Shown: positions 7,105 to 54,522, counted from the stretch's first letter. The stretch: 64,000 nt of DNA from Patescibacteria group bacterium (GCA_038063715.1 JBBTUO010000017.1:22518-86517), one strand, 5' to 3'. Made by a program: numbers and translations. Notes: generated by a model not told the origin, from the sequence alone.

Positions 7105-7923
7105 ATGACCGTCACAATTATAAAACCTAAAAAAACTTTCAGCCTCGAGGATATAAAAGAGGTCTGGCGCTACAAAGGGCTCCTGTATTTTTTTGTCTGG
7201 CGTGATCTAAAGGTACGTTACAAGCAAACGATTGTGGGTATTGGATGGGCGGTTTTCCAGCCTTTTATGACCATGGTGGTCTTCAGTGTGTTCTTCGGAA
7301 AGCTTATACAAGTTCCTTCGGATGGCATTCCCTACCCGATTTTTGTGTACACCGGACTGTTGTTCTGGCAGCTATTTTCAAGCGCACTAAACGACACCAG
7401 CAACTCTCTTATATCGAACTCATCAATCATAACAAAAGTTTATTTTCCAAGAATTATACTGCCCCTCGCCGATACCGCGAATAAGTTCGTAGACCTTTTT
7501 TTTGCAAGTCTGGCTCTCATCTATCTTATGTTTCATTATGGATATACTCCGCAACCAATTGGAATCATCTTAATACCTATTCTGCTCGTCATAACCTCAG
7601 CAACAGCAGTCGGGGTGGGGTTGATTCTAGCCTCAATCAACGTCAAATACCGCGACGTGCGCTATGTTATGCCATTTTTCATGCAGTTACTTCTTTTCTT
7701 GACCCCAGTCATCTACCCTTCGAGTATCGCGGGCAAATATGCATGGCTCTTATCATTTAACCCCATGACTGGGGTTATCAAGGCTGCGCGGGCGGGACTA
7801 CTTGGAACGGGACCGATCGGCTGGCATTCTCTTCTGATATCGGGAATAGCGGCATTAGTATTCCTTATTCTTGGAATTTTCTTCTTTAAAAAAACCGAAA
7901 GATACTTCGCAGATATCGTTTAA
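7105..7923 (+). CDS. wzm: ABC-2 type polysaccharide export permease
   Basis: 272 aa with 6 predicted TM segments and the ABC-2 family pattern. It is followed by the cognate ATPase. Confidence 0.85.
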   Translation: MTVTIIKPKKTFSLEDIKEVWRYKGLLYFFVWRDLKVRYKQTIVGIGWAVFQPFMTMVVFSVFFGKLIQVPSDGIPYPIFVYTGLLFWQLFSSALNDTSNSLISNSSIITKVYFPRIILPLADTANKFVDLFFASLALIYLMFHYGYTPQPIGIILIPILLVITSATAVGVGLILASINVKYRDVRYVMPFFMQLLLFLTPVIYPSSIAGKYAWLLSFNPMTGVIKAARAGLLGTGPIGWHSLLISGIAALVFLILGIFFFKKTERYFADIV

Positions 7924-7927
7924 TTAT

Positions 7928-9202
7928 ATGGCACCAATCATCGAAATAAAAAACCTAAGCAAACGCTACAATATCACCGGACGAAAACGGGGATACGTCG
8001 CATTGCGTGATGTTATTACGGAAAAATTACGGCATCCACTCACGGCGCTTTTAAATCTCGGTAGAAGTATGCTGGGTAAAAACGGAATGGAGATATTCTG
8101 GGCATTAAAAGATATAAACCTCAGTGTTGAAAGGGGTGAGGCAGTAGGTATCATTGGCGCGAACGGCGCTGGAAAATCAACTCTTCTCAAAATTCTCTCT
8201 CGCATCACGCCTCCCACGGAGGGTGAAATTCGGTTGAATGGCAAGCTTGCCTCACTCCTTGAAGTGGGAACAGGCTTTCATCCCGAACTTTCTGGACGAG
8301 AAAATATATATTTAAACGGGGCAATTCTTGGTATGACCCGAAAAGAAATTGCTGATAAATTCGATGACATTGTATCTTTTTCGGGCATCGGAGATTTTAT
8401 TGATACACCTGTCAAACGGTACTCATCTGGTATGTATGTCAGGTTAGCGTTTTCAATTGCGGCTCATATTGAACCGGATATTCTTCTCGTAGACGAAGTA
8501 CTTGCTGTAGGCGACGCTGAGTTCCAAAAAAAATGTCTTGGAAAAATGGAAGAGGTTACCGGTAAGGCTGGAAGAACAATTCTGTTTGTCAGCCACAATA
8601 TGGCTGCAGTGACGAAACTCTGCCCCACTTCAGTCTTGCTATCGCACGGCCGAATCGTGATGACCGGCAAAACAGAGGATGTCATAAATTATTATCTGGC
8701 CGAGGAGTATAAAAAAAGTTCTGACAGCGAGAAACTGCTTCCATTCAAAAATCAAGACCTTGTTATCGAAAAATTTGATGTAACCCAAAACGGCACGCGA
8801 ACCGAGACTCTCGATGGCGACCGTCCATTTGAAATCACAATTAAATTTGAAACTCTGGTCGACCTAACCCAATTCCGCCTTGGAATTTATGTTAAAAACA
8901 GCTTGGGAAGTGTCTTATTCCGATCAACCACCTCTGACTGGAAACCTGAACTAGAAAAAATAAAACGCGGACGGCACAGTGCCACCTTGGTATTCCCCGG
9001 AAAACTTCTAATGCCGGGCAGTTATTTTTTGAACATTCACGCAGGACGCTTTAGCATCATAAATTACATGGCCAAACAGAGTTTGGATCGTACGATAGTC
9101 GTCGGTGCTTCGGCCTACTTCAATCAAGCTCACCCCGCCGAGCGAACCGAAGGCGAGCTTCTGCTTCCGTCCGAATGGAAACTAGAGTCAGTACATAATT
9201 GA
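7928..9202 (+). CDS. wzt: Polysaccharide ABC transporter ATP-binding protein with an extended C-terminal (putative glycan-terminus-binding) domain
   Basis: Walker A GANGAGKST, signature YSSGMYVRLAF, Walker B ILLVDE. About 200 extra C-terminal residues sit beyond the NBD. I chose the ATG at 7928 to avoid overlapping wzm. Confidence 0.85.
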   Translation: MAPIIEIKNLSKRYNITGRKRGYVALRDVITEKLRHPLTALLNLGRSMLGKNGMEIFWALKDINLSVERGEAVGIIGANGAGKSTLLKILSRITPPTEGEIRLNGKLASLLEVGTGFHPELSGRENIYLNGAILGMTRKEIADKFDDIVSFSGIGDFIDTPVKRYSSGMYVRLAFSIAAHIEPDILLVDEVLAVGDAEFQKKCLGKMEEVTGKAGRTILFVSHNMAAVTKLCPTSVLLSHGRIVMTGKTEDVINYYLAEEYKKSSDSEKLLPFKNQDLVIEKFDVTQNGTRTETLDGDRPFEITIKFETLVDLTQFRLGIYVKNSLGSVLFRSTTSDWKPELEKIKRGRHSATLVFPGKLLMPGSYFLNIHAGRFSIINYMAKQSLDRTIVVGASAYFNQAHPAERTEGELLLPSEWKLESVHN

Positions 9203-9986: not shown

Positions 9987-10867
9987 ATATGCGACAGCAA
10001 TTAATTCAAAGCGGAGAGGCGCTTCTAGCTAAGGACCAGAAGCTGGTTATTCTGCTTGGCGATATGAGTGTGTTCGGCTTCCGAGAAGCTTTCAAAAATT
10101 TCCCGACGAGAATATACAATATAGGAATACTTGAACAATCTACGATAGGATTGGCAGCTGGCCTCGCAATGACAGGAATGGTTCCGATTGTCCATACAAT
10201 TGCTCCTTTTCTAGTTGAACGCTCTTTGGAACAACTGAAAGACGATTTCGGTTATCAAAAGTTGGGAGGAAATTTTGTCAGCATTGGAGCCTCATACGAC
10301 TACTCTGCTTTAGGCTGTACTCACCACTGCCCCGGGGATGTCGGCATCTTGAAAAATATTCCCGGAATGGAAATCGTGGTTCCAGGGACAGCCGCGGAAT
10401 TTGACTCTCTGCTTCGCCAAGCCTACGACAACGGACGGCCAACTTATTATCGACTAAGCGAACAAGAAAACACCGAAAGCTACCCAGTTAAATTTGGCAA
10501 AGCACAAGTAATTAAAAAAGGTAAAAAAGCGACGATCATCGCAGTCGGTCCAGCGCTTAGGCCGTCGCTTGAAGCGTGTGCAAATGATGATGTCACTATA
10601 CTTTATTACACAACCGTCGCTCCTTTTGATAGTGACACCTTGCGAAACAATTGCTCCTCAGGAAGAGTTTTACTATGTGAGCCATACTACACTGGAACCC
10701 TCACAAATGACATCATGTCTGCCCTAAATCCTCTGCCAATTGTAATTGAAAACGTCGGGGTACCACGAGAATTCTTAACCCATTACGGCAAAGCTTCCGA
10801 GCAAGACGCTTACATTGGGATGACCGGTTCAGCCATCCATTCAAAACTAAAAAAACTACTGTTATGA
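9983..10867 (+). CDS. Transketolase, C-terminal (pyrimidine-binding/C-terminal) subunit
   Basis: 294 aa with the pattern of the transketolase central and C-terminal domains. Its start overlaps the stop of the N-terminal subunit gene by 4 nt. Confidence 0.85.
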   Translation: MNMRQQLIQSGEALLAKDQKLVILLGDMSVFGFREAFKNFPTRIYNIGILEQSTIGLAAGLAMTGMVPIVHTIAPFLVERSLEQLKDDFGYQKLGGNFVSIGASYDYSALGCTHHCPGDVGILKNIPGMEIVVPGTAAEFDSLLRQAYDNGRPTYYRLSEQENTESYPVKFGKAQVIKKGKKATIIAVGPALRPSLEACANDDVTILYYTTVAPFDSDTLRNNCSSGRVLLCEPYYTGTLTNDIMSALNPLPIVIENVGVPREFLTHYGKASEQDAYIGMTGSAIHSKLKKLLL

Positions 10868-11823
10868 ACAAGCCCAATTCAAAAACATCTTCGATGGTAA
10901 AATTCCCCAAGTTGCTAATAACTGGTGGAAACGGACTGGTTGGCACAGCTATTAAAAAGCTTGGAATACCAGACGCGGTTTTTGTCGCAAGAGCAGACGC
11001 TGATTTGCGAGATTTTAAGCTAACGAAGGCCCTGTTTGAAAAAATTAAACCGACACACGTCATCCATTTAGCCGCACATGTCGGAGGTGTCGGCGGAAAC
11101 AGCCTTCATCCTGGTGAATACTTCCGTGACAATATTCTAATAAATACCAATGTCTTGGAGGCCGCACGGTTAACGGGCGTAAAAAAACTCGTATCAATGC
11201 TCTCAACCTGCATTTTTCCTGATCCAGCAATATTCCCACTGAAAGCTGAAGACTTGCATAAAGGTCAACCGCATCCATCAAATTTCGGCTATGCCTATGC
11301 TAAAAGAATGCTTGAGGTTCAAACTAACGCCTACAGAAAAGAGTGGGGTTGCGATTATATTACTCTAGTAGGCACTAACATTTATGGTCCGAATGATAAT
11401 TTCAGTTTGGAAAACGGACATGTCGTCTCCTCGCTCGTACATAAGTGTTTTTTAGCAAAGAAAAATAAAACCGATCTTGAGGTTTGGGGAAGTGGAAAAC
11501 CGCTCCGTGAATTTGTTTTGTCTGACGACATCGCGAAACTGACCGTTTGGGCTATTGAAAGCTACGACGAAGCGGAGCCTCTGATGCTATCCTCCGGCAT
11601 TGAGACTAGCATAAAGGAACTGGTGCTTCTAGTAGCGGAAAAAATGAAATTCACAGGACGGGTTATTTTTGACACTAAAAAAACCGACGGACAACTCCGA
11701 AAACCGTCTGACACTACAAAATTTTTAAAATACCTCCCAGAATTTAAATTTACCCCTGTTGAGGATGGTGTAGAAAAAACCGTTAATTGGTTCGTGGAGA
11801 ATTATCCCAATGTCAGAAAATAA
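10864..11823 (+). CDS. NAD(P)-dependent epimerase/reductase, second GDP-L-fucose-synthase-like paralog (GDP-4-keto-6-deoxyhexose epimerase/reductase family)
   Basis: LLITGGNGLVGTAI, LSTCIFPD, YAYAKRMLEV and GTNIYGPNDNF motifs parallel Fcl. Confidence 0.7.
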   Translation: MNKPNSKTSSMVKFPKLLITGGNGLVGTAIKKLGIPDAVFVARADADLRDFKLTKALFEKIKPTHVIHLAAHVGGVGGNSLHPGEYFRDNILINTNVLEAARLTGVKKLVSMLSTCIFPDPAIFPLKAEDLHKGQPHPSNFGYAYAKRMLEVQTNAYRKEWGCDYITLVGTNIYGPNDNFSLENGHVVSSLVHKCFLAKKNKTDLEVWGSGKPLREFVLSDDIAKLTVWAIESYDEAEPLMLSSGIETSIKELVLLVAEKMKFTGRVIFDTKKTDGQLRKPSDTTKFLKYLPEFKFTPVEDGVEKTVNWFVENYPNVRK

Positions 11824-12916
11824 AATGGGAAAAAAAATTCTAATCCAAGTGCCCAGTCCGTTTGCCGCAAATAACGCGATCTTTGAACAAGACGCAAATA
11901 ATATGACAGAGCCATGGCGTGTTTTAAAGGCGCGCCTAAATTCTCTCGGCTACGAAGTGCTAACAGCCGATAATAACTCGCTTGAAGACTGTGAATGGCT
12001 TTTGTTTATTGACTCGCTTTCGCTCTACGGCACCGCTCAGCGTGGAGGTTTTAAAAATTTTGCACGCAGAATTTCAAATAAAATTTTCAAAGTGAAAGAT
12101 AAAAATCCATGGCCAAATCGGCCTTTGTATGAAGAAGCTATGGCGCGAGGAATGGAAAACCGGATGGCGTTGTTTCTTTGGGAAGGCGCCGTAGTGAGTC
12201 CATACAACTATATGCCGAAAACCTGGAAAAAGTTTAACCGAATCTTTACTTGGAAAGATGATTTAGTTGATAACAAAAAATTCTTCAAATTTTATCTGCC
12301 GACACCGACTCAAAATGGAATAGTAAAACCTCTGCCATTCGCACAAAAAAAACTGCTAGTAAACATTTCAGCGAATAAGTGGTACCCAGGCGAAAATGAG
12401 CTTTTCAGTGCCAGGGTGAGAACCAGTCTGTATTTTGATCGACACTATCCCAATGATTTTGATCACTTTGGAGCGCGATGGCATACGGCGGTTACACGCT
12501 GGCAGAAATACTTTCCAGCTCTTATACCAAAATTTACTACTTACCGCGGTAAATCAGGAAACAAGATGGAAACACTTTCTAAATATAAATTCTCACTATG
12601 TTATGAAAACGTTTCTGACAATAAAGGTTATATTACCGAAAAAATCTTTGACATCCTTCAGGCAAAATCCGTGCCAGTTTATTGGGGGGCACCAAACATT
12701 GAGGAGTACGTCCCCTCTACTGCTTTCGTAGATCGAAGAAAATTCATAAATGATGAGGCGTTAGCAAAATACTTAAAAAATGTTTCCGAGGAAAACTATG
12801 AAAAAATGGTTGAGGCAGGACAAAAATATCTTGAAACCGAAAACTGTAAAAAATTCTTTTCGGAATATTTTGCTAAACGAGTAATTGAGGTTTTAAATAT
12901 CACGAGAAAAAACTAG
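11810..12916 (+). CDS. GT10 family alpha-1,3-fucosyltransferase-like glycosyltransferase
   Basis: The C-terminal motif KFSLCYENVSDNKGYITEKIFDILQAKSVPVYWGAPNIEEY matches the conserved GT10 alpha-1,3-FucT motif known from Helicobacter FutA. Confidence 0.8.
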   Translation: MSENKMGKKILIQVPSPFAANNAIFEQDANNMTEPWRVLKARLNSLGYEVLTADNNSLEDCEWLLFIDSLSLYGTAQRGGFKNFARRISNKIFKVKDKNPWPNRPLYEEAMARGMENRMALFLWEGAVVSPYNYMPKTWKKFNRIFTWKDDLVDNKKFFKFYLPTPTQNGIVKPLPFAQKKLLVNISANKWYPGENELFSARVRTSLYFDRHYPNDFDHFGARWHTAVTRWQKYFPALIPKFTTYRGKSGNKMETLSKYKFSLCYENVSDNKGYITEKIFDILQAKSVPVYWGAPNIEEYVPSTAFVDRRKFINDEALAKYLKNVSEENYEKMVEAGQKYLETENCKKFFSEYFAKRVIEVLNITRKN

Positions 12917-12917
12917 T

Positions 12918-13931
12918 ATGAAAGAGCCTTTGACTAAAAACCAAAAACTTGCTCGCAATTCTCTTCTTTCAAAAATTGAAACTGGTGAATACGCGCTTAG
13001 AGCTAACCCTTGCATTTGTGGAAAGATGATGGATATTCTGATTGCAAATCGAGACCGTTATAATATTTCCATACGCACCGTGCTTTGTCAGGCCTGTGGT
13101 CTGGTTCGCTCCGATCCTTATTATAACACCGTCACTCTCTCACACTTTTATAATGATGAATATCGAAAGCTCTACGCCATCAAAGCTGGGTCGGTCGAAG
13201 ATTTTTTTATTGAACAAACTGGTTTTGGAAAGCATATTTATGATTTCTTAGCCGAAAAGATTTTCAAGCGCGAAATCAAGGGAAAAAATGTCCTTGAAAT
13301 CGGTTGTGGTGCAGGAGGAATTCTAGAAACCTTTAAAAAAATGGGGAATGAAGTTGCCGGTTGTGATTATGGTGAAAGTTACATCCAGTTTGGGAAAAGT
13401 AAAGGATTAAATCTTTTTGCTGGTGGTTCGGATACTCTTTTAAACACGGGTTTAGCAGACATTATAATTCTCAACCACACATTTGAGCATATGACTCAAC
13501 CAACTAAAGAGTTGGAGCAAATTAAAAAATTACTAGCACCAAACGGCATACTATATATATCGTTGCCGGGAATTTATTCAATTCATGATACTTATGCGGG
13601 TAAACTTATTAATGGGTACTTGCAAAATGCCCACGTTTGGTATTTCACTCTGAAAACCTTAACTTCCCTGCTCTCTAAATGTGGCTTTCAGCTTATAGCT
13701 GGAAATGAAATAATTATGGCGGTTTATAAAATTGGCCTGACAAGCCAAAAAATGGAAGTCGAAAGCCCTGAAAAAATCCTATACTACCTTAAAAAAACCA
13801 AAAAATTACGCTGGTACTACGGCTTAAAAAAGTTCTCCCTCCGTCATTCAGCCTTTGAAACATTGAGACGATTTGGACCGTTATATAAGATGACCCGAAC
13901 TATTTATAGAAAAGCTAAAAAAATACAATGA
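12918..13931 (+). CDS. Class I SAM-dependent methyltransferase with an N-terminal Cys-rich (zinc-ribbon-like) region
   Basis: VLEIGCGAGGILE motif I. A CxC...CQACG cysteine cluster lies upstream. Confidence 0.7.
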   Translation: MKEPLTKNQKLARNSLLSKIETGEYALRANPCICGKMMDILIANRDRYNISIRTVLCQACGLVRSDPYYNTVTLSHFYNDEYRKLYAIKAGSVEDFFIEQTGFGKHIYDFLAEKIFKREIKGKNVLEIGCGAGGILETFKKMGNEVAGCDYGESYIQFGKSKGLNLFAGGSDTLLNTGLADIIILNHTFEHMTQPTKELEQIKKLLAPNGILYISLPGIYSIHDTYAGKLINGYLQNAHVWYFTLKTLTSLLSKCGFQLIAGNEIIMAVYKIGLTSQKMEVESPEKILYYLKKTKKLRWYYGLKKFSLRHSAFETLRRFGPLYKMTRTIYRKAKKIQ

Positions 13932-14608
13932 TAAAGGGACAAAAAATCGTGGCACTCGTGCCTCTTAGGGGCGGATCAAAATCTATCCCTTACAAAAATA
14001 TAAAAAAAATCTCTGGCAAGCCTTTAGCTTACTGGTGCCTTTTTGCTGCTACCAATTCAAAATATATTGATGAAGTGTGGGTTTCGACAGATGATTCGAA
14101 AATAAAAAAAGTGGTTTCAGGACTCGGACTTGACGTGAAAGTGCTAGACCGACCAGAAGCATTGGCCACGGACAAAGCATCGACTGAATCGGTGATGCTC
14201 CATTTTGCCGAGAAGGTCACCTTTGATATTCTGATTACCGTTCAAGCAACTTCCCCACTAACGACCAGTGACAATTTAGACAAAGCAATCGAAATTCTTT
14301 TAGAGGGTGGACATGATAGCTTGGTCACGGTGGTTAAAGAAAAAAGTTTCTTGTGGTCACCAGAAGGCAAAGCTCTAAATTACGACCCTAGAAATCGACC
14401 GATGAGGCAGGACTGGCCAGGGACATTTTCCGAAAATGGAGCTTTCTACATTACCAAAAAAAATATTCTAGAAACTGAAAAATGTCGACTCGGAGGGCGC
14501 GTCAAAGTCTTTGAGATGCCAGCCGAAACGACATTGCAAATTGACGAAGCGGAAGACTGGCGAAAAGTTGCAAAATTACTAAAAATGAGAAAGAATTATC
14601 TTTCCTAA
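13928..14608 (+). CDS. Acylneuraminate (CMP-ulosonic acid) cytidylyltransferase family protein
   Basis: IVALVPLRGGSKSIPYKNIKKISGKPL is the hallmark N-terminus of NeuA/PseF/LegF-type cytidylyltransferases. Confidence 0.8.
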   Translation: MIKGQKIVALVPLRGGSKSIPYKNIKKISGKPLAYWCLFAATNSKYIDEVWVSTDDSKIKKVVSGLGLDVKVLDRPEALATDKASTESVMLHFAEKVTFDILITVQATSPLTTSDNLDKAIEILLEGGHDSLVTVVKEKSFLWSPEGKALNYDPRNRPMRQDWPGTFSENGAFYITKKNILETEKCRLGGRVKVFEMPAETTLQIDEAEDWRKVAKLLKMRKNYLS

Positions 14609-14615
14609 AGAATCT

Positions 14616-15497
14616 ATGAAATACAAACAGCCAAAAATAGTCGCGGAAATCGGTTGCAATCATATGGGTGATTTTGAATTGGCGAAAGAATTGATTTTCT
14701 TAGCCAAAGAAACTGGAGCGCATGTGGCAAAATTTCAAAAAAGAAATCCGCGTCAACTGCTGACAAAAGAACAGTATAACTCTCCTCACCCAGTGCCCTA
14801 TCACTCCTTCGGAAAAACTTACGGGGAGCACCGCGAGTTTCTAGAGCTCACGAAGGAACAGCATCGCAAACTTAAAAATTACTGCGACCGTCTTCATATT
14901 GAGTACGCAACTTCTGTTTGGGATGTGCAGTCCGCGCGAGAAATTATTTCTTTAAAACCTAAATATATTAAAGTTCCCTCGGCTTGCAACAACAACTACG
15001 AACTTTTGAAGGTCCTGCGGGATAACTACAAAGGTGACGTCCATATATCTTTCGGTATGACAACGCACGATGAAGAAGAGTCGATTGTGAAATTTTTTGA
15101 GGAAAAGAATCAGGCCAAAAAACGCTTGGTTATCTACTCCTGCACCTCTGGCTACCCAGTTGATTTTAATGACGTCTGTCTTTTGGAAATTTCTAGAGTT
15201 GAAAAAACCTATGGTGATAGAGTAAAGGAAATTGGCTTTTCTGGGCACCACGCTGGCATCGCCATCGATATCGCAGCTTATGCACTGGGTGCCACTTGGA
15301 TTGAAAGACACTTCACAAAGGACAGAATGCTCAAGGGCACCGATCATGCAGCTTCGCTCGAGCCACAGGGCTTGAAAACTCTTGCCAGAAATCTTGGCGC
15401 TACCTTTACGTCCCTGACATATAAAAAATCAGAAATTTTGGAAGTGGAAAAGGTTCAGCGAGAAAAATTAAAGTATCGTTCAAAATCAGAAAAATAA
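14616..15497 (+). CDS. N-acetylneuraminate synthase (NeuB/PseI/LegI) family PEP-condensing enzyme, short form lacking a recognisable C-terminal SAF domain
   Basis: KIVAEIGCNHMGDFELAKELIFLAKETGAHVAKFQKR is the NeuB-family TIM-barrel N-terminus. At 293 aa it is shorter than canonical NeuB (about 345 aa). Confidence 0.78.
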   Translation: MKYKQPKIVAEIGCNHMGDFELAKELIFLAKETGAHVAKFQKRNPRQLLTKEQYNSPHPVPYHSFGKTYGEHREFLELTKEQHRKLKNYCDRLHIEYATSVWDVQSAREIISLKPKYIKVPSACNNNYELLKVLRDNYKGDVHISFGMTTHDEEESIVKFFEEKNQAKKRLVIYSCTSGYPVDFNDVCLLEISRVEKTYGDRVKEIGFSGHHAGIAIDIAAYALGATWIERHFTKDRMLKGTDHAASLEPQGLKTLARNLGATFTSLTYKKSEILEVEKVQREKLKYRSKSEK

Positions 15498-15498
15498 A

Positions 15499-16164
15499 AT
15501 GAAAATTTTAAACAAATTTAATAGTGAAAACAGTTTTGACTACGAGAACGGCTTTTACCTTACAGCTAAACCTGACAGACTCGGCAAGCTTTTGGCGCAT
15601 TATGAACTTTATAAAAAAGTTTGCGACCTACCGGGCGCGATTGTTGAATGTGGTGTTTTCAAGGGCGCATCTCTTATAAGATTCGCTACATTCCGAAATC
15701 TTTTTGAAGCGGAACATTCCCGAAAAGTTATCGGTTTTGACATGTATGGAAAATTCCCGCAAACTAAATTCGAAAATGATAAAAAATACCTGAAGAAATT
15801 CATTGAAGCCGCTGGTGAAGAAAGTATTTCAGAGACAGAACTGACGCAGATTTTTGAATTGAAGGATATTAAAAATTTTGAATTAGTTAAGGGTGATATC
15901 AACAAGACTGTTCCAGACTACGTAAAAAACAATCCTCATCTTAAAATTTCCCTACTACATATTGATACTGACGTATATGAACCGGCGGTCACAATCCTGC
16001 GTGAAATGTATGACCACGTTGTAAAAGGTGGAATCATCGCCTTTGATGACTACGGCACTTTCCCTGGCGAGACACAGGCGGTAGACGAATTCTTTAAAGA
16101 TAAAAAGGTAAAAATCCAGAAATTCCCCTTCTCACACATTCCTTCTTTTGTCGTAAAACCATAA
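15499..16164 (+). CDS. TylF/MycF (macrocin O-methyltransferase) family SAM-dependent O-methyltransferase
   Basis: IVECGVFKGASLIRFA and DTDVYEPAVTILREMYDHVVKGGIIAFDDY are characteristic of the TylF family. Confidence 0.78.
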   Translation: MKILNKFNSENSFDYENGFYLTAKPDRLGKLLAHYELYKKVCDLPGAIVECGVFKGASLIRFATFRNLFEAEHSRKVIGFDMYGKFPQTKFENDKKYLKKFIEAAGEESISETELTQIFELKDIKNFELVKGDINKTVPDYVKNNPHLKISLLHIDTDVYEPAVTILREMYDHVVKGGIIAFDDYGTFPGETQAVDEFFKDKKVKIQKFPFSHIPSFVVKP

Positions 16165-16170
16165 ACTCTC

Positions 16171-17031
16171 ATGAAGTCCACAATAAAAGAAATGCCGATT
16201 GCCGGTCAATTATTAAAAAACCTGGGAGCATTGAACCGAAATATCAAGCATGTTGTCCAATCCTCCCTGTTCTATCTAAAAAATAAAAAGCTTCTTTCGT
16301 TGAACAAAGTCTTAGCAGGAAGTGCTGCGGGTCGACGGGCTTTCATTCTTGCAACTGGCCCATCGATTAAAACTCAAGATCTTTCGCGCCTACAAGGAGA
16401 ATTATGCGTGAGCGTCAGCAATTTTTTCGTTCATCCTGACTTTAAAAAAATCAGTCCGGAATATCACATCTTTCCCGCCTCTCACAAACCTATAACAGTT
16501 GAACAAATGTTAGACTTGCTCCGCGACGCTGAAAAACATTTTCCTGATGGACAAAAAATCTTTATGTCTGCAACAGATAAATATCTCGTTGAAAAATTCG
16601 GCGTGTTTAAAAAACAAAAAGTCTACTATTATTTGATCTCCAGCAGTCCCTTGACTGCACAAGGTATGATTAATTTCTCAAAAAGGCTCCCGATAATACA
16701 GACCAGCCCGCACATAGCCGTATATCTCTCCCTGTATCTGGATGTAAAAGAAATTTATCTTTTGGGTGTGGACCATGACTGGATTTTACATATAGGCGAA
16801 ACGAGACATTTTTATGATGAGAAAAAAAGCGCACTTGCCCAAACCGGCTATAACGAGTGGTTAGAAAGCGATTTAGGTACCGAGTGTGAAGCGTATGGGC
16901 GCCTGTGGAAAATATATCGGCAAATAAGAACCTACGCGACCAAACATAAAGTTGTCATAATTAATGCAACAACCGGTAGTTTGCTTGACGTGTTCCCTAG
17001 AGCCAATCTGGAAGAAATTTTAAAAAAATAA
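16171..17031 (+). CDS. DUF115 (Maf/MptE-like) family protein, putative glycosyl/ulosonic-acid transferase
   Basis: AFILATGPSIKTQDLSRLQGELCVSVSN matches the GPSL....N Rossmann-like core of DUF115 (motility-accessory-factor family). I have no direct family confirmation. Confidence 0.4.
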   Translation: MKSTIKEMPIAGQLLKNLGALNRNIKHVVQSSLFYLKNKKLLSLNKVLAGSAAGRRAFILATGPSIKTQDLSRLQGELCVSVSNFFVHPDFKKISPEYHIFPASHKPITVEQMLDLLRDAEKHFPDGQKIFMSATDKYLVEKFGVFKKQKVYYYLISSSPLTAQGMINFSKRLPIIQTSPHIAVYLSLYLDVKEIYLLGVDHDWILHIGETRHFYDEKKSALAQTGYNEWLESDLGTECEAYGRLWKIYRQIRTYATKHKVVIINATTGSLLDVFPRANLEEILKK

Positions 17032-17868
17032 ATGAGTAAAGCAAGAAAAATTTTAAAATCAATCACGCCGCCATTCATCTGGAATGGGGCAAGAGCTTTG
17101 GTGTGGCCTAAAACCAAACAATACAGTGGAGATTTCAAAACTTGGGCCGAAGCCAAAGCACTTACTTCAGGCTACGACACTCCGTTAATTTTGGAAAAAG
17201 TACAAAGCGCAGCACTAAAAGTAAAACGCGGTGAAGCGGCTTATGAACGTGACTCGGTTAATTTCAGTACCATAGAGTACTCGTGGCCTCTCCTAGCGGG
17301 ACTTTTGTGGATTGCGAGCCAAAATGAAAACAAACTAAGCGTACTTGATTTTGGCGGTTCACTCGGTTCAAGCTACTACCAAAATAGGAAATTTTTGGCG
17401 CATCTCAAAAGCTTAAGTTGGTCTATTGTCGAACAAAAACACTTTGTAGAGTTTGGTCATAAAAATCTCACAGATGAGCATTTGAAATTCTACACCGACC
17501 TAAAAGAGTGTGCTGTGGCAGAAAAACCTGATGTTTTTCTGCTTTCGAGTGTTCTACCCTATATTGAAAAGCCCTACGAAATTTTGGAACTAGTTCGACA
17601 ATTAAACCTGAAATATATTATCATAGATCGCACCCCATTCTTCACACAGCCAAGCATCCTCCCCGATCGAATTACTGTCCAACAATCTTCAAAAAAAATC
17701 TATGACGCGAGTTATCCGGCATGGTTTTTAAATGAACATAAACTCCTAAGATTTTTAAGTACCGATTATGAATTGATAGCCGATTGGCAAGCGCTGGCGG
17801 GCAAAATTCCACTTGGGAATGTCATAGCGGAAGATAAAGGATATATATATGTTCGAAAAAATATTTAA
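17032..17868 (+). CDS. Putative SAM-dependent methyltransferase (TIGR04325-like family often found in glycan loci)
   Basis: The N-terminal ITPPFIWNG motif and VLDFGGSLGSSYY Gly-rich loop are followed by a Rossmann-like segment. Confidence 0.4.
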   Translation: MSKARKILKSITPPFIWNGARALVWPKTKQYSGDFKTWAEAKALTSGYDTPLILEKVQSAALKVKRGEAAYERDSVNFSTIEYSWPLLAGLLWIASQNENKLSVLDFGGSLGSSYYQNRKFLAHLKSLSWSIVEQKHFVEFGHKNLTDEHLKFYTDLKECAVAEKPDVFLLSSVLPYIEKPYEILELVRQLNLKYIIIDRTPFFTQPSILPDRITVQQSSKKIYDASYPAWFLNEHKLLRFLSTDYELIADWQALAGKIPLGNVIAEDKGYIYVRKNI

Positions 17869-18799
17869 TCGTCCTGAGCTTCAAAGTAACCCTCCGGTGC
17901 TGGTTGACATCGGAGCCTCCGGCGCGCTGTACCCTCATTGGGAGCAGATTGCCAAATATTGCATTTGCATTGCCTTTGACCCGGACTTACGGGAAATGAA
18001 GCACCTGGACAGCGGCACATCGCCCTATCGAGAACTTTTCGTTCATAACTCAATCGTATCAGCAGAGAAAAAATTGGAGAGTAATTTTTACTTGACCAAA
18101 TCCCCATACTGTTCGAGCACGCTCGTACCTGCTGTTGAACCATCCATTTCTGTAGCTCCTCTTTTTGAAATTGAGAAAAAAGTGGTCTTAAAAACTGAAA
18201 ATCTTGTTGACGTCCTAAGGGCAAAAAACATTTCTCACGTCGACTGGTTTAAAACCGATTCCCAAGGCACCGACCTTCGTATTTTCAAAAGTCTTGGGGA
18301 AGAAACTTTACGTCGTGTTCTGATAGCTGACCTTGAACCTGGAATTATAGACGCCTACAAAGGCGAGGACAAGGCATGGCACGTACTTCAATTCATGGAC
18401 GAAAAAAATTTTTGGATGAGCGACATGAGAGTAATGTCTGTGAAAAAGATCCCGAGAAATTGGAAAAAACTTTCGAACGAGCGAGATCGAACGTTTAGAA
18501 GCGGCTCAGCAGATTCGCCTGGCTGGACAGAAATGTCTTTTATAAGCGACGGCACACAAGAAGATTTCGACATTCGGGAATTTCTATTGCTCTGGGTCTT
18601 CGCTACCATCAAAAACCAGCACGGCTTCGCCTTTGATATCGCCACCCGTGGCACGGAAAAATTCTCCGATGTGATCTTCCTAGAGCTAGCGACCGAATCC
18701 GAAAAAAGCGCCACCCGCAAACAAAGATATAATAACCGAACCACTAAAATTATGCGCTTCACTAACCGTCTCAAAAAAATTGTGAAAAAAATTTTATGA
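17849..18799 (+). CDS. FkbM-family methyltransferase-like protein
   Basis: LVDIGASGALYPHW resembles the FkbM DIGAN.G motif. Confidence 0.45.
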   Translation: MFEKIFNRPELQSNPPVLVDIGASGALYPHWEQIAKYCICIAFDPDLREMKHLDSGTSPYRELFVHNSIVSAEKKLESNFYLTKSPYCSSTLVPAVEPSISVAPLFEIEKKVVLKTENLVDVLRAKNISHVDWFKTDSQGTDLRIFKSLGEETLRRVLIADLEPGIIDAYKGEDKAWHVLQFMDEKNFWMSDMRVMSVKKIPRNWKKLSNERDRTFRSGSADSPGWTEMSFISDGTQEDFDIREFLLLWVFATIKNQHGFAFDIATRGTEKFSDVIFLELATESEKSATRKQRYNNRTTKIMRFTNRLKKIVKKIL

Positions 18800-19815
18800 C
18801 ATCCGCAACAGTCTCGTTACAACGTCATTTCTGCACCCTTTTCGATAGAGGGTTTTTGTTTAAAGGGTTAGCCCTTTATAAATCCTTAATGAAACATGCT
18901 GTAAATTTTACCTTATGGATTTTGTGCATGGATACCGAAACCTATAATGTACTAAAACAGCTTAATCTTCCGAACGTACGCCTCCTGACACTCTCTGACG
19001 TGGAGGATGAACAACTCCAAACCGCCAAACAAAACCGTAGTTCACGAAAATACTGCTTTACGCTATCCCCATCGCTCCCCCTCTACATTCTTAAAAATCA
19101 CGATATAGAAAGTATTAGCTACCTAGATGCGGACTTGTACTTTTTTAGCTCTCCGGAGGTTATATATAAAGAGATGGAAAGTAAATCAATTATGATAATT
19201 CCTCACCACCTCGGGCCAACACGGAAAGAAAAAGAAAAGGAGGTCGGCAAGTACAACGTCGGGATGCTAATATTTAAAAAAGATGAGAACGGACTTGCTT
19301 GTCTACGATGGTGGCGTGAACAATGCATTCTGTACTGCGATGACCAGATCCGGCCGGGACACTACGACGACCAAAAGTTCCTTGATTATTTTGAAGAAAA
19401 ATTCAAAGGCGTACACGTGCTAAAAAATCGCGGAGCAAATCTCGCACCATGGAATATTGAGCGTGACAAAATACACATACAGAAAAATATTGTTTTTGTT
19501 GGCAACGACCCGCTAGTATTCTTCCACTTTTCAGGCTTCCAATTGTACGAAAAATCCTTTATGCTACCCTACGGGCCCTACACTTTCCACGAATATACGC
19601 GCTCTTCGCTCTTTAAAGATTTCATCTACAAACCGTACTCTAATTGCTTGTATCAAACATTAAACGATATCCGCCGGATAAGACCTCTATGGAATTACGG
19701 GCTGACGCCCCGACCGAAATTGTTAAAAAGTCTTGAGCAACTTTTTTACAACAGCCTATACTTCCCCACTTGGCGGCTCGCAAAAAAAATAACATCACTA
19801 CTCAAGAACAAATAA
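18796..19815 (+). CDS. Putative GT-A fold glycosyltransferase (nucleotide-diphospho-sugar transferase, DxD motif)
   Basis: An LDADLYFF DxD-containing segment follows a Rossmann-like N-terminal half. Placement in a glycan operon supports the call, but the assignment is tentative. Confidence 0.4.
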   Translation: MTSATVSLQRHFCTLFDRGFLFKGLALYKSLMKHAVNFTLWILCMDTETYNVLKQLNLPNVRLLTLSDVEDEQLQTAKQNRSSRKYCFTLSPSLPLYILKNHDIESISYLDADLYFFSSPEVIYKEMESKSIMIIPHHLGPTRKEKEKEVGKYNVGMLIFKKDENGLACLRWWREQCILYCDDQIRPGHYDDQKFLDYFEEKFKGVHVLKNRGANLAPWNIERDKIHIQKNIVFVGNDPLVFFHFSGFQLYEKSFMLPYGPYTFHEYTRSSLFKDFIYKPYSNCLYQTLNDIRRIRPLWNYGLTPRPKLLKSLEQLFYNSLYFPTWRLAKKITSLLKNK

Positions 19816-28658: not shown

Positions 28659-28726
28659 AAGGAATACACTAGCACAGATCTGTTCATAAATCATGTAATT
28701 TTCTAAGCTGGTTTTTGGTTATCAGG

Positions 28727-28735
28727 TGGTATACT
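28727..28735 (+). promoter_or_regulatory. Extended -10 promoter element TGGTATACT located 9 nt upstream of the ATG at 28745 (leaderless-type)
   Basis: tggTATACTattacgctcATG has the same geometry as TGGTATAAT-9nt-ATG upstream of the ATPase gene at 59076. Confidence 0.45.
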
Positions 28736-28744
28736 ATTACGCTC

Positions 28745-43261: not shown

Positions 43262-43271
43262 CGAATTATAA

Positions 43272-44123: not shown

Positions 44124-44148
44124 TAGATATAATCGATAAAATTCACGA

Positions 44149-53913: not shown

Positions 53914-54522
53914 TTAACGCAGATTAAGTTTCGTCTGATCTATACCCTTAGCATCAAGAATGAAGTTACAGAGGTCACGAACAGCTCCATTTCCACCGGG
54001 ACGCGGAGCAACAAACAAAGCTAGTTTCTTAATCACTGTTTCAGCGTCGCTTGGCGCTGATGACAAACCAACCTTTTGCATAATTTCAGCATCACCAACA
54101 TCGTCCCCCATATAGGCACAATTATCCCATGAAATATTATGCTCCGTAAGCCACTTACCGATTGTTCCCACTTTATCCTTACCAATTGAACCGGTAAATA
54201 CATCTACAGGTGCCCAACCATTTTGATTGGTAGCTGATTTAACTGAGGGAAGTCTATTCAACTTACCTGCAAGTGCTCCTGCAAAACCATTAGTTTCAGC
54301 AGTAATAAAAGCAAATCTCACACCATCCACGGCGCGAAGAAGAGATATACCTTGGCCATCTTTGTGATCTCGCCTCTGATACACGGGTTTATATTCACCT
54401 TTTTCATCCAATGCGATAAAAACCTGGCTTGGAAAGATTACGCCGTCGCCGTCTAACACAACTGCTTTTATGGCTTTTGCCGCCCTTTTTGCATCTGATA
54501 TAGTTTTTTTCATTTGAGGCAA
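53914..54522 (-). CDS. HAD-IIIA hydrolase, KdsC/YrbI-like (ulosonate-phosphate phosphatase family)
   Basis: VVLDGDGVIF motif I and an AFITAETNGFAGALAGKLN body. At 202 aa the size is compatible with KdsC-type phosphatases. Confidence 0.55.
   Translation of the reverse strand: MPQMKKTISDAKRAAKAIKAVVLDGDGVIFPSQVFIALDEKGEYKPVYQRRDHKDGQGISLLRAVDGVRFAFITAETNGFAGALAGKLNRLPSVKSATNQNGWAPVDVFTGSIGKDKVGTIGKWLTEHNISWDNCAYMGDDVGDAEIMQKVGLSSAPSDAETVIKKLALFVAPRPGGNGAVRDLCNFILDAKGIDQTKLNLR

What the first reader, a model, noticed from the sequence alone, without database searches (positions are those of the whole stretch)
13928..17031. CMP-ulosonic (sialic/pseudaminic-like) acid module with a short SAF-less NeuB, a TylF O-methyltransferase and a DUF115/Maf-like putative transferase
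Four consecutive genes are present: a NeuA-like cytidylyltransferase (GGSK motif), a NeuB-family synthase of only 293 aa with no recognisable C-terminal antifreeze-like domain, a TylF-type O-methyltransferase and a DUF115 protein. In Campylobacter and Helicobacter, DUF115/Maf proteins are the putative transferases of pseudaminic/legionaminic acid onto flagellin. A KdsC-like phosphatase lies at 53914-54522. The window has no PseB/PseC/PseH-type upstream enzymes and no NeuC. The substrate of the NeuB-like enzyme is therefore unclear and could be an unusual O-methylated ulosonic acid.
Basis: partly seen in the sequence, partly recalled or inferred. Interest (0 to 1): 0.65.

Follow-up and report, generated by a model that had tools for sequence, protein, structure and literature searches.

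The report
CMP-Kdn sugar pathway in a Patescibacterium
These genes most likely make the activated acidic sugar CMP-Kdn from mannose-6-phosphate by a pathway already characterised in Bacteroides and an alga, here in a tiny candidate-phyla-radiation bacterium, next to an uncharacterised enzyme that probably attaches the sugar to a surface glycan.

Summary
The four ORFs exist exactly as described. They are tightly packed genes in a >45-kb glycan locus of a Patescibacteria (CPR) MAG.

- **Short NeuB.** It is 63% identical over 286 aa to the characterised, equally short Kdn-9-phosphate synthetase of Prymnesium parvum, which accepts only Man-6-P + PEP. It sits in a tight clade (52-85% identity), clearly apart from all other NeuB types seen (<=37%).
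- **Cytidylyltransferase.** It is 44% identical to P. parvum CMP-Kdn synthetase.
- **Phosphatase.** The KdsC-type HAD at 53914-54522 is 51% identical to the phosphatase that sits inside the same cassette in a sister genome.
- **Consequence.** The module makes CMP-Kdn from mannose-6-phosphate, so no NeuC/PseB/PseC is needed.
- **ORF 16171-17031.** It matches DUF115 only below Pfam's cut-off, but most homologues carry it. Its AF2 model (pLDDT 93.6) hits Cst-II sialyltransferase, and 37 of 46 homologues lie just downstream of a NeuB gene. One relative is fused to a cytidylyltransferase. It is a stand-alone, non-Maf, probable ulosonic-acid transferase.
- **Methyltransferase.** The TylF/CalS11-like gene nested in the cassette suggests O-methyl-Kdn, a sugar known from Sinorhizobium fredii.

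Verdict: a known pathway in a new host. The transferase and the methylation target remain unproven.

The parts
13928..14608 (+). CMP-Kdn synthetase (NeuA/CTP_transf_3 family cytidylyltransferase, 226 aa)
   Evidence: PF02348, E 7e-26. It is 44% identical over 225 aa (E 8e-55) to the characterised P. parvum CMP-Kdn synthetase. The best PDB match is 9t4z 'PpNeuA', E 2.9e-48. GGSK is at residue 15. It scores below the PseF and KdsB equivalog cut-offs.
14616..15497 (+). Kdn-9-phosphate synthase (short, SAF-less NeuB-family aldolase, 293 aa): Man-6-P + PEP -> Kdn-9-P + Pi
   Evidence: PF03102, E 1.3e-64, with no SAF domain. It is 63% identical over 286 aa (E 2e-138) to the P. parvum Kdn-9-P synthetase, whose specificity for Man-6-P is absolute. 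Clade members are 52-85% identical, against <=37% for other NeuB types. Catalytic motifs EIGCNH, KFQK, SGHH and ERHFT align with N. meningitidis NeuB.
15499..16164 (+). TylF/CalS11-type SAM- and metal-dependent O-methyltransferase (221 aa); inferred to O-methylate Kdn (free, CMP-activated or transferred)
   Evidence: PF05711, E 1.6e-20. The best PDB match is CalS11, a TDP-rhamnose 3'-O-methyltransferase, E 2.4e-22. Motifs ECGVFKG, DTD and FDDYG are present. Orthologues are nested between the CKS, NeuB and DUF115 genes in 9 other loci with three different NeuB classes and different gene orders.
16171..17031 (+). Stand-alone DUF115 / GT42-like-fold protein (286 aa); probable CMP-Kdn-dependent glycosyltransferase
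   Evidence: PF01973 is sub-threshold here (20.5 bits) but present in most homologues. The AF2 model has pLDDT 93.6. Top Foldseek hits are Cst-II sialyltransferase (E 9e-6, prob 1.0, TM 0.41-0.48), then MptE. A profile search of PDB picks MptE, Cst-II and Maf, all weakly. In 37 of 46 loci a NeuB-family gene lies within 6 kb upstream. P0259 is a CTP_transf_3-DUF115 fusion. Invariant residues are G63-P64-S65, H88, G199, H202 and H213-F214-Y215.
53914..54522 (-). KdsC-family HAD phosphatase (202 aa); candidate Kdn-9-P phosphatase
   Evidence: Hydrolase_3 hit. NCBIfam hits to KdsC and the KDN-9-P phosphatase NF058599, all sub-threshold. It is 51% identical (E 2e-62) to the HAD encoded between CKS and NeuB in the sister locus L002. 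The DGDG (DxD) motif is at residue 24. It is only 29% identical over 82 aa to BT1713.
12918..13931 (+). Class I SAM methyltransferase (Methyltransf_23, 337 aa), a conserved upstream partner of the cassette; target unknown
   Evidence: PF13489, E 3e-20. It overlaps the CKS start by 4 nt. Orthologues lie directly upstream of CKS in Methanoculleus, other Patescibacteria, Planctomycetota, cyanobacteria and Bacteroidota.
17032..17868 (+). TIGR04325-family methyltransferase (278 aa), part of a conserved block downstream of the DUF115 gene
   Evidence: TIGR04325 scores 222 bits against a cut-off of 80. The gap after the DUF115 gene is 0 nt. It is syntenic in L007, L009, L010, L015, L020, L026 and L035.
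17849..18799 (+). FkbM-like methyltransferase (316 aa), in the same conserved block
   Evidence: PF05050 scores 25.4 bits, above its cut-off of 22.7. TIGR01444 is sub-threshold. It is syntenic in L004, L007, L009 and L010. ORF4-like domains are fused to FkbM domains in P0291.
18796..19815 (+). Conserved protein of unknown family (339 aa) in the same block; possibly a GT-A glycosyltransferase (DAD motif). This is inference only.
   Evidence: No Pfam, NCBIfam or PDB match. It is syntenic with the DUF115 gene in L004, L007, L009, L010, L020, L026, L035 and L036. DAD is at residue 111.
7105..9202 (+). Wzm permease (7105-7923) and Wzt ATPase with a C-terminal carbohydrate-binding domain (7871-9202): the exporter of the glycan that presumably receives Kdn
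   Evidence: ABC2_membrane; ABC_tran plus Wzt_C at 41.6 bits, above the 30.4-bit cut-off. In 20 of 41 loci a Wzt of roughly 370-570 aa (mostly 414-451) lies within 10 kb upstream of the ORF4 homologue.

Best explanation

Proposed steps:
1. The 293-aa NeuB-family enzyme condenses mannose-6-phosphate with PEP to give Kdn-9-P. This rests on 63% orthology to a characterised enzyme.
2. The KdsC-type HAD phosphatase at 53914-54522 removes the 9-phosphate. This is inferred from family membership and from its position inside the cassette in sister genomes.
3. The NeuA-type enzyme activates Kdn with CTP to give CMP-Kdn. This rests on 44% orthology to a characterised enzyme.
4. The stand-alone DUF115 protein, which has a Cst-II-like fold, transfers Kdn from CMP-Kdn to the lipid-linked glycan. 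This is inferred from fold, synteny and a gene fusion.
5. The TylF/CalS11-like enzyme O-methylates the Kdn, possibly at the nucleotide-sugar stage. This is inferred from its nested position only; neither the target nor the position of methylation is shown.

Because the precursor is a central metabolite, no NeuC/PseB/PseC-type enzymes are required.
For: **Synthase.**
- 63% identity, E 2e-138, to P. parvum Kdn-9-P synthetase, which is itself only 312 aa and SAF-less (sequence from the supplement of PMC6200933).
- That enzyme converts only Man-6-P. It does not convert ManNAc-6-P, Ara-5-P, Man or ManNAc.
- Identity is bimodal: the Kdn clade is 52-85% identical and all other NeuB partners are <=37%.
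- Catalytic motifs are retained.

**Cytidylyltransferase.** 44% identity, E 8e-55, to P. parvum CMP-Kdn synthetase, which does not accept Neu5Ac. The best PDB hit is PpNeuA.

**Phosphatase.**
- 51% identical to the HAD encoded between CKS and NeuB in L002.
- In Bacteroidota, rhizobia and Methanoculleus the CKS is fused to this HAD.
- The Tenacibaculum fusion passes NCBIfam's KDN-9-P phosphatase equivalog, 182 bits against a cut-off of 180.

**Transferase.** Evidence comes: the fold hit to Cst-II, 37 of 46 loci with an upstream NeuB gene, 32 of 46 with a CKS gene, and a CKS-DUF115 fusion protein. DUF115 Maf proteins have been shown to transfer Neu5Ac and Kdo from CMP donors (bioRxiv 10.1101/2020.06.03.131540).

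**Methylation.**
- The TylF-like gene is nested inside the cassette in several phyla and gene orders.
- CalS11, its closest solved relative, is named in its PDB entry as a TDP-rhamnose 3'-O-methyltransferase, i.e. its named substrate is a nucleotide sugar.
- 5-O-methyl-Kdn is a known bacterial sugar in S. fredii (reference cited in PMC9000132).
- S. fredii plasmids carry a 57%-identical synthase next to a methyltransferase.
Against: - No enzyme was assayed, and 63% identity does not prove identical specificity.
- The sequence of B. thetaiotaomicron BT1714 itself could not be obtained for comparison.
- The phosphatase lies 37 kb from the cassette, is below every curated cut-off, and is only 29% identical to BT1713.
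- ORF4 misses Pfam's DUF115 cut-off. Its TM-scores to Cst-II are modest (0.41-0.48), and MptE, a pyrophosphokinase, is an almost equally good fold hit.
- ORF4 homologues pair with several NeuB classes, so donor specificity for Kdn is not established.
- TylF's closest solved relative methylates rhamnose, and the locus contains Rml-type genes. The methyl acceptor could therefore be another sugar.
Confidence: 0.72

Rival explanations
1. The NeuB-like enzyme makes a different phosphorylated ulosonic acid, such as Neu5Ac-9-P from ManNAc-6-P, an 8-carbon acid from a pentose phosphate, or an acid from an unusual hexose phosphate supplied by neighbouring genes such as the split transketolase. The product would then be a novel acid rather than Kdn.
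For: Specificity is inferred from orthology only. The locus has a split transketolase and extra Fcl-like enzymes directly upstream, which could supply unusual sugar phosphates. NCBIfam has no dedicated Kdn-9-P synthase model to pass.
Against: - 63% identity to an enzyme with absolute Man-6-P specificity.
- The enzyme belongs to a tight clade that includes rhizobial and Bacteroidota members, and Kdn has been chemically or enzymatically documented in those two groups.
- The transketolase/Fcl2/GT10 block also occurs in loci that have a quite different NeuB (L010, L011), so it is not tied to this synthase.
Confidence: 0.1
2. One reading: a sialic-, pseudaminic- or legionaminic-like nonulosonic acid whose upstream enzymes (NeuC, PseB/C/H) are encoded elsewhere in the genome.
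For: The NeuB and NeuA family memberships. The best NCBIfam names are NeuB/PseI and PseF.
Against: - All those equivalog scores are far below their cut-offs: 193 against 400, 123 against 340, 114 against 206.
- The SAF domain is absent.
- A KdsC-type phosphatase is part of the cassette, which indicates a phosphorylated-substrate route.
- The closest characterised relatives are Kdn-specific.
Confidence: 0.03
3. ORF 16171-17031 is not a glycosyltransferase. It would instead be an MptE-like (pyro)phosphokinase or another nucleotide-binding enzyme acting on the sugar or the glycan, and Kdn would be transferred by one of the many other GTs in the locus.
For: The only Pfam hit is to the MptE-like family. 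M. jannaschii HPPK (8sd5) is among the top fold hits, at E 5e-4 and TM up to 0.50, and is the best PDB profile hit, E 0.18. In rhizobia the same Kdn core is paired with other transferases, namely DUF6716 and a sialyltransferase-annotated protein.
Against: - Cst-II gives the best fold E-values.
- The GxGPS and GxD donor-site motifs align with Cst-II.
- The gene is strongly and specifically adjacent to NeuB + CKS in more than 10 phyla, and one relative is fused to a cytidylyltransferase.
- There are no pterin or folate genes nearby.
- Characterised DUF115 Maf proteins are CMP-sugar transferases.
Confidence: 0.12
4. The TylF/CalS11-like methyltransferase methylates a different residue of the glycan, such as rhamnose or fucose, and Kdn is not methylated.
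For: The closest solved relative, CalS11, methylates TDP-rhamnose. The locus encodes RmlA/B/D-like, Gmd/Fcl and at least six other methyltransferases. Four Kdn-type loci lack the TylF gene: L005, L006, L038 and L045.
Against: Where present, the gene sits inside the CKS/NeuB/DUF115 cassette in different gene orders and with three NeuB classes, in Patescibacteria, Bacteroidota, cyanobacteria and Citrifermentans. O-methyl-Kdn has a chemical precedent.
Confidence: 0.4

Closest known systems
[quoted passage not shown] 2018, PMC6200933)
   Same: The synthase is a short SAF-less NeuB-family enzyme (312 against 293 aa, 63% identity). The cytidylyltransferase is 44% identical. The route goes through phosphorylation and dephosphorylation starting from Man-6-P.
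   Different: That pathway is eukaryotic and its genes are not clustered. No dedicated phosphatase was found there, and its CKS carries a C-terminal transmembrane helix. Here the genes form an operon with methyltransferases and a putative transferase, and a KdsC-type phosphatase lies in the same locus.
Bacteroides thetaiotaomicron Kdn pathway (BT1713 Kdn-9-P phosphatase, BT1714 Kdn-9-P synthase; Wang et al. 2008, cited in PMC6200933 and PMC7845648)
   Same: The chemistry is the same: synthase, then KdsC-family phosphatase. Bacteroidota orthologues of the window's synthase are about 70% identical and sit beside a CKS-HAD fusion that passes the BT-type KDN-9-P phosphatase model.
   Different: The window's phosphatase is only 29% identical to BT1713 over 82 aa and is unlinked from the core genes.
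Cst-II (GT42) sialyltransferase of Campylobacter jejuni and Maf (DUF115) flagellin nonulosonic-acid transferases
   Same: The predicted fold is shared, as are the GxGPS and GxD donor-site motifs. All are associated with CMP-ulosonic-acid biosynthesis genes.
   Different: Sequence identity is only 16-18%. No GT42 Pfam match was found, and the DUF115 match is sub-threshold. ORF4 is 286 aa, against 666 aa for the solved Maf chain 5mu5. It has no flagellin-binding domains and no flagellin genes nearby. Its context is a Wzm/Wzt polysaccharide locus.
Ulosonic-acid chain terminators of ABC-transporter-dependent O antigens (Klebsiella O12 WbbB beta-Kdo GT99; O4 ORF7 GT137; PMC11231755)
   Same: Both have a CMP-ulosonic-acid module and transferase next to Wzm and a Wzt that carries a C-terminal carbohydrate-binding module.
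   Different: The transferase fold differs. ORF4 has one N-terminal helix of about 40 residues, not shown to be a coiled-coil ruler. The similarity of the Wzt binding module does not follow the Kdn-type synthase. A terminator role is speculative.
Sinorhizobium fredii 5-O-methyl-Kdn polysaccharide (Gil-Serrano et al. 1998, cited in PMC9000132)
   Same: It is a chemical precedent for an O-methylated Kdn in a bacterial surface polysaccharide. S. fredii megaplasmids carry a 57%-identical short NeuB, a CKS-HAD fusion and a nearby methyltransferase.
   Different: The rhizobial locus is KpsM/KpsS/C-type, with a DUF6716 transferase and a class I (non-TylF) methyltransferase. The link between that locus and the published structure is not demonstrated here.

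Membership tests
Kdn-9-phosphate synthase (short NeuB-family, P. parvum / BT1714 type) | NeuB TIM-barrel aldolase domain with metal- and PEP-binding residues | tested here: met
   PF03102, E 1.3e-64. Motifs EIGCNH, KFQK, SGHH and ERHFT align with the N. meningitidis NeuB catalytic residues.
Kdn-9-phosphate synthase (short NeuB-family, P. parvum / BT1714 type) | No C-terminal SAF/antifreeze-like domain; length about 290-312 aa | tested here: met
   293 aa. The match ends at position 271 of the 329-position TIGR03569 model. The next gene starts 1 nt after the stop codon. The P. parvum enzyme is 312 aa.
Kdn-9-phosphate synthase (short NeuB-family, P. parvum / BT1714 type) | Close sequence relationship to a biochemically characterised member, separate from other NeuB clades | tested here: met
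   63% identity over 286 aa, E 2e-138. There is a bimodal gap between 52-85% and <=37% identity.
Kdn-9-phosphate synthase (short NeuB-family, P. parvum / BT1714 type) | Partner KdsC-family phosphatase and CMP-Kdn synthetase | tested here: met
   CKS is adjacent and 44% identical to the P. parvum CKS. The HAD at 53914-54522 is 51% identical to the in-cassette HAD of L002. The HAD is below the curated cut-offs.
Kdn-9-phosphate synthase (short NeuB-family, P. parvum / BT1714 type) | Catalysis of Man-6-P + PEP -> Kdn-9-P | not testable with these tools
   This requires an enzyme assay.
N-acetylneuraminate synthase NeuB / pseudaminate synthase PseI (sensu stricto) | Score above the equivalog cut-off, plus a SAF domain | tested here: not met
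   TIGR03569 scores 193 bits against a cut-off of 399.65. TIGR03586 scores 122.8 against 340.25. There is no SAF domain.
Maf (motility-associated factor) flagellin nonulosonic-acid transferases | Central DUF115 (PF01973) domain | tested here: inconclusive
   20.5 bits against a cut-off of 34.6 for this protein. Most homologues carry PF01973. Maf 5mu5 is only a weak profile hit, E 0.62.
Maf (motility-associated factor) flagellin nonulosonic-acid transferases | Multi-domain architecture with flanking domains for flagellin recognition (the solved Maf chain 5mu5 is 666 aa), and a flagellar gene context | tested here: not met
   286 aa, consisting of one catalytic domain plus an N-terminal helix. 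No flagellin genes are in the window. The context is a Wzm/Wzt glycan locus.
GT42 (Cst-II-type) sialyltransferases | Cst-II-like modified GT-A fold with a CMP-binding GxGPS motif | tested here: met
   Foldseek E 9.4e-6, prob 1.0, TM 0.41-0.48. ATGPS and GVDH align with Cst-II GNGPS and GIDF.
GT42 (Cst-II-type) sialyltransferases | Sequence-level family membership and a catalytic His188 equivalent | tested here: inconclusive
   No GT42 Pfam hit and 16-18% identity. The invariant residues H202 and H213 are candidates, but no residue-level superposition was available.
TylF/NovP/CalS11 sugar O-methyltransferases | TylF domain with a SAM-binding motif and an acidic metal-binding triad | tested here: met
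   PF05711 scores 73.9 bits against a cut-off of 23. CalS11, E 2.4e-22. ECGVFKG, DTD and FDDYG are present. Assigning these motifs to SAM and metal binding rests on knowledge of the family, not on a test here.
MptE (archaeal 6-hydroxymethylpterin diphosphokinase) | MptE fold and a pterin/folate biosynthetic context | tested here: not met
   The fold is similar to 8sd5. However, no folate or pterin genes are nearby, and the context is consistently NeuB/CKS.
Polymerase-terminator, ABC-transporter-dependent glycan assembly with a Wzt carbohydrate-binding module | Wzm, plus a Wzt carrying a C-terminal CBM | tested here: met
   ABC2_membrane; ABC_tran plus Wzt_C at 41.6 bits against a cut-off of 30.4.
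Polymerase-terminator, ABC-transporter-dependent glycan assembly with a Wzt carbohydrate-binding module | The ulosonic acid is the terminal cap read by the CBM | tested here: inconclusive
   The NulO cassette follows Wzm/Wzt in 20 of 41 loci. However, CBM similarity does not track the Kdn-type synthase: 31-34% to Kdn loci against 50% to L015, which has another NeuB.

The most novel reading that the evidence does not exclude
The stand-alone DUF115 family (754 clusters at E<=1e-30 and about 5000 at E<=1e-10) would be a previously unrecognised, cross-domain family of CMP-ulosonic-acid transferases. Its members would install a nonulosonic-acid residue, here O-methyl-Kdn methylated at the CMP-sugar stage, as the non-reducing cap of ABC-transporter-exported glycans. 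That would make it the first dedicated bacterial Kdn-transferase. It would also mean that ultra-small CPR episymbionts display a sialic-acid-like methylated sugar at the tip of their surface glycans.
Probability: 0.2. Interest if true: 0.6.

Novelty: new member of a known kind. Interest (0 to 1): 0.35.

Why it matters
- **Annotation.** It corrects a widespread mis-annotation. More than 8000 database relatives were found, the best-scoring of them about 290 aa with only the NeuB domain and labelled 'N-acetylneuraminate synthase family protein'; the close ones (52-85% identity) are best read as Kdn-9-P synthases. This removes the apparent paradox of a NeuB without upstream amino-sugar enzymes.
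- **Biology of the host.** It predicts that a Patescibacteria/CPR organism with a very small genome invests in a Kdn-bearing, heavily methylated surface glycan. This may be relevant to attachment to hosts or evasion of them, and it is testable by DMB-LC-MS on enrichments. The literature searches run here found no paper linking Patescibacteria with nonulosonic acids.
- **Candidate enzyme.** It singles out a compact, confidently modelled 286-aa protein as a candidate Kdn/nonulosonic-acid transferase. No bacterial Kdn-specific transferase was met in the papers read here, so this would be a useful enzyme for glycoengineering if confirmed.

Tried and rejected
- **Leptospira origin.** I first guessed a Leptospira rfb locus from the TIGR04325 (LIC12133) hit. 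This was rejected: identical proteins come from a Patescibacteria MAG.
- **Pse/Leg/Neu5Ac synthase reading.** Rejected on equivalog cut-offs, the absent SAF domain and the phosphatase partner.
- **Papers not held.** Wang et al. 2008 (BT1714) and Mann et al. 2019 (chain-termination bioinformatics) are not in the library. BT1714 was therefore not compared directly.
- **Kdn-9-P synthase model.** NCBIfam has none.
- **Kdn cap read by the Wzt CBM.** I tested whether CBM similarity follows the Kdn-type NeuB. It does not, so the cap idea is kept only as a minority reading.
- **ORF 18796-19815.** No Pfam, NCBIfam or PDB relatives were found, so its function is left open.
- **Literature.** Searches for Patescibacteria + nonulosonic acids returned nothing. 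CPR + sialic acid returned only passing mentions.

Full report
**Observation.** The four ORFs are at the coordinates given, all on the + strand, with junctions of 7, 1 and 6 nt. There is a 4-nt overlap with the preceding methyltransferase gene and a 0-nt gap to the following one. They lie in an uninterrupted + strand run from about 5.0 to 21.3 kb. The wider window is almost entirely glycan biosynthesis:
- Gmd/Fcl, Wzm, and Wzt with a C-terminal carbohydrate-binding domain;
- a split transketolase and more than ten glycosyltransferases;
- at least seven methyltransferases and two carbamoyltransferases;
- GDP-heptose-type and Rml-type genes, and two PMT-like GT-C proteins.

Pfam assigns CTP_transf_3 (E 7e-26), NeuB (E 1.3e-64) and TylF (E 1.6e-20) to the first three ORFs. 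The fourth gets only a sub-threshold MptE-like/DUF115 hit, 20.5 bits against a cut-off of 34.6. Proteins identical to ORF4 and to the NeuB-like ORF are annotated in a Patescibacteria-group MAG on a 90-kb contig. My first guess of Leptospira, based on the neighbouring TIGR04325 'LIC12133' methyltransferase, was wrong.

**The short NeuB.** The protein matches only the barrel part of the NeuB models. It scores far below the NeuB and PseI equivalog cut-offs, 193 against 400 bits and 123 against 340 bits. The next gene starts 1 nt after its stop, so the SAF domain is truly absent rather than frameshifted away.

This is not a peculiarity of this genome. The homologue search saturated at 8000 hits, and the top 120 are mostly about 290 aa with only PF03102. 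They include cultured Bacteroidota at about 70% identity.

The decisive comparison came from the literature. Wagstaff et al. 2018 (PMC6200933) characterised a Kdn-9-phosphate synthetase from the haptophyte Prymnesium parvum, which they found by similarity to B. thetaiotaomicron BT1714. Their supplement gives the expression construct. Translated, it is a 312-aa SAF-less protein that is 63% identical to the window's protein over 286 aa, E 2e-138. That enzyme converted only Man-6-P. It did not convert ManNAc-6-P, Ara-5-P, Man, ManNAc, ManN or Ara.

I then looked at the NeuB genes found next to ORF4 homologues in 57 loci. Identity to the window and to the P. parvum enzyme is bimodal: one clade at 52-85%, and everything else at <=37%. 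The metal- and PEP-binding motifs align with N. meningitidis NeuB.

**Cytidylyltransferase and phosphatase.** ORF 13928-14608 is 44% identical (E 8e-55) to the P. parvum CMP-Kdn synthetase, which does not accept Neu5Ac. Its best solved relative is 9t4z 'PpNeuA', E 2.9e-48.

A route through a phosphorylated intermediate needs a phosphatase. In a sister Patescibacteria locus (L002/L003) a 188-aa KdsC-family HAD is encoded between the CKS and NeuB genes. The window's HAD at 53914-54522 is 51% identical to it, E 2e-62. In Methanoculleus, Bacteroidota and rhizobia the HAD is fused to the C-terminus of the CKS. The Tenacibaculum fusion passes NCBIfam's equivalog for the Bacteroides-type KDN-9-P phosphatase, 182 bits against a cut-off of 180. 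The window's own HAD is below every curated cut-off and only 29% identical to BT1713, so this step is inferred.

The precursor is mannose-6-phosphate, so no NeuC or PseB/C/H is required. None was found among the 52 of the window's 72 ORFs of at least 130 aa that were scanned with Pfam.

**ORF 16171-17031.**
- Homologues: 277 were found at E<=1e-3, and most of the 120 listed carry PF01973.
- Model: an AlphaFold2 model built on 41 homologues is confident, with pLDDT 93.6 and pTM 0.90.
- Fold: the best PDB hits are C. jejuni Cst-II sialyltransferase (E 9.4e-6, prob 1.0, TM 0.41-0.48), followed by M. jannaschii MptE.
- Profile search: against PDB sequences it picks MptE, Cst-II and Maf 5mu5, each individually weak. 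The family's ATGPS and GVDH motifs align to Cst-II's GNGPS and GIDF.
- Conservation: invariant residues cluster at G63-P64-S65, H88, G199/H202 and H213-F214-Y215.
- Synteny: 51 loci from species-representative genomes span Patescibacteria, Chloroflexota, Methanomicrobiales, Planctomycetota, Verrucomicrobiota, Thermodesulfobacteriota, Cyanobacteria, Bdellovibrionota, Bacteroidota and Bacillota. Of 46 loci with at least 3 kb of upstream sequence, 37 have a NeuB-family gene within 6 kb upstream, three more have one just downstream, and 32 have a CKS.
- Fusion: one relative, P0259, is a CTP_transf_3-DUF115 fusion. Others are fused to FkbM, class I methyltransferase, polysaccharide deacetylase or TPR domains.
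- Family size: 754 50%-identity clusters at E<=1e-30 and 5007 at E<=1e-10, mostly 270-300 aa.

DUF115 Maf proteins have been shown to transfer Neu5Ac and Kdo from CMP donors. I therefore read ORF4 as a CMP-ulosonic-acid transferase. It is not a Maf in architecture or context. Its partners include at least four NeuB classes: the Kdn type, another short type, NeuB-SAF-TIM fusions and standard NeuB-SAF. The family as a whole is therefore not Kdn-specific.

**Methylation.** The TylF-type gene's closest solved relative is CalS11, named in its PDB entry as a TDP-rhamnose 3'-O-methyltransferase, E 2.4e-22. Orthologues are nested inside the CKS/NeuB/DUF115 cassette in other Patescibacteria, a Bacteroidota MAG, two cyanobacteria and Citrifermentans, in different gene orders and with three NeuB classes. 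This argues for a nonulosonic-acid-directed role. It is guilt by association only, and four Kdn-type loci lack the gene.

O-methyl-Kdn has a chemical precedent: the 5-O-methyl-Kdn polysaccharide of Sinorhizobium fredii, cited in PMC9000132. S. fredii, S. meliloti and Ensifer megaplasmids carry a 56-58%-identical short NeuB next to a CKS-HAD fusion. In S. fredii NXT3 a methyltransferase lies nearby.

**Where the Kdn goes.** The cassette follows Wzm and a Wzt that carries a C-terminal Wzt_C domain above Pfam's cut-off. The same order recurs in 20 of 41 loci. In the Klebsiella paradigms such a domain reads a non-reducing-end cap, which can be a Kdo residue (PMC11231755). A Kdn cap is therefore attractive.

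I tested one prediction of that idea. The window's binding domain is only 31-34% identical to those of other Kdn-type Patescibacteria loci, but 50% identical to that of L015, which has a different NeuB. This does not support a Kdn-specific read-out. The position of Kdn in the glycan remains open.

The locus also encodes a Wzy_C+TPR protein. In an organism expected to lack an outer membrane, that hints at protein or wall-polymer glycosylation rather than LPS. This is inference.

**Verdict.** The biosynthetic core is a new member, in a new phylum, of the known CMP-Kdn pathway. The 'unusual' short NeuB is the normal form of Kdn-9-P synthase. What is still uncharacterised is the stand-alone DUF115-type putative transferase family and the target of the nested TylF/CalS11-like methyltransferase. 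Interest is moderate to low for the pathway itself. It is higher only if the transferase or cap reading proves true.

Noticed in passing
window 9213-9986 and 9983-10867 (+), with 10864-11823 and 11810-12916: A split transketolase (N-terminal and pyrimidine/C-terminal subunits) sits inside the glycan operon. It is followed by a second Fcl-like epimerase/reductase (228 bits against a cut-off of 500) and a GT10 fucosyltransferase-like protein. The same block recurs in the Taylorbacteria loci L010 and L011, next to a different NeuB. Its role is unknown; it could add a two-carbon branch or supply sugar phosphate.
   Followed up: partly
window 1459-3747 (-): A 762-aa protein with a Wzy_C (O-antigen ligase / O-oligosaccharyltransferase-type) domain plus C-terminal TPR repeats lies at the edge of the locus. 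The host is a CPR bacterium presumed to lack an outer membrane. This suggests transfer of the exported glycan to protein or a wall polymer.
   Followed up: no
window 22393-24258 (+) and 33025-34770 (-): Two NodU/CmcH-type carbamoyltransferases in one glycan locus imply O-carbamoylated sugars.
   Followed up: no
window 27446-29725: A GmhB-like HAD phosphatase (151 bits, below the cut-off), an NTP_transferase and a GHMP kinase form a GDP-heptose-type set. No SIS isomerase was seen nearby.
   Followed up: no
window 41463-45381: RmlB-, RmlA- and RmlD-like genes are followed by a C-methyltransferase (Methyltransf_13/14). This points to a dTDP-linked C-methyl branched deoxysugar.
   Followed up: no
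L010:8092-9999 (also L008, L014, L018, L020 and others): Related Patescibacteria loci replace the short Kdn-type synthase with a 635-aa NeuB-SAF-xylose-isomerase-like TIM-barrel fusion. [quoted passage not shown]
   Followed up: partly
P0259, P0247, P0249, P0291, P0331 (database proteins): ORF4-like domains occur fused to a cytidylyltransferase (P0259). They also occur fused to FkbM or class I methyltransferase and polysaccharide deacetylase domains in proteins of up to 1102 aa.
   Followed up: partly
L058 (S. meliloti pSymB) and L059 (S. fredii pSfreNXT3c): Rhizobial megaplasmids carry a Kdn-type short NeuB (56-57% identity) and a CKS-HAD fusion inside KpsM/KpsS/C-type capsule loci. They use other transferases: DUF6716 and a protein annotated as an alpha-2,3-sialyltransferase.
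   Followed up: partly
window 7871-9202 (Wzt residues 286-443): The Wzt carbohydrate-binding domain diverges much faster than the ATPase domain: 31-50% against about 70% identity among Patescibacteria loci. Its similarity does not follow the type of NeuB gene downstream.
   Followed up: yes
window 55818-59076 (-): A Lamin-tail-domain + PKD surface protein and a VirD4/TraG-like coupling ATPase lie just beyond the glycan genes.
   Followed up: no
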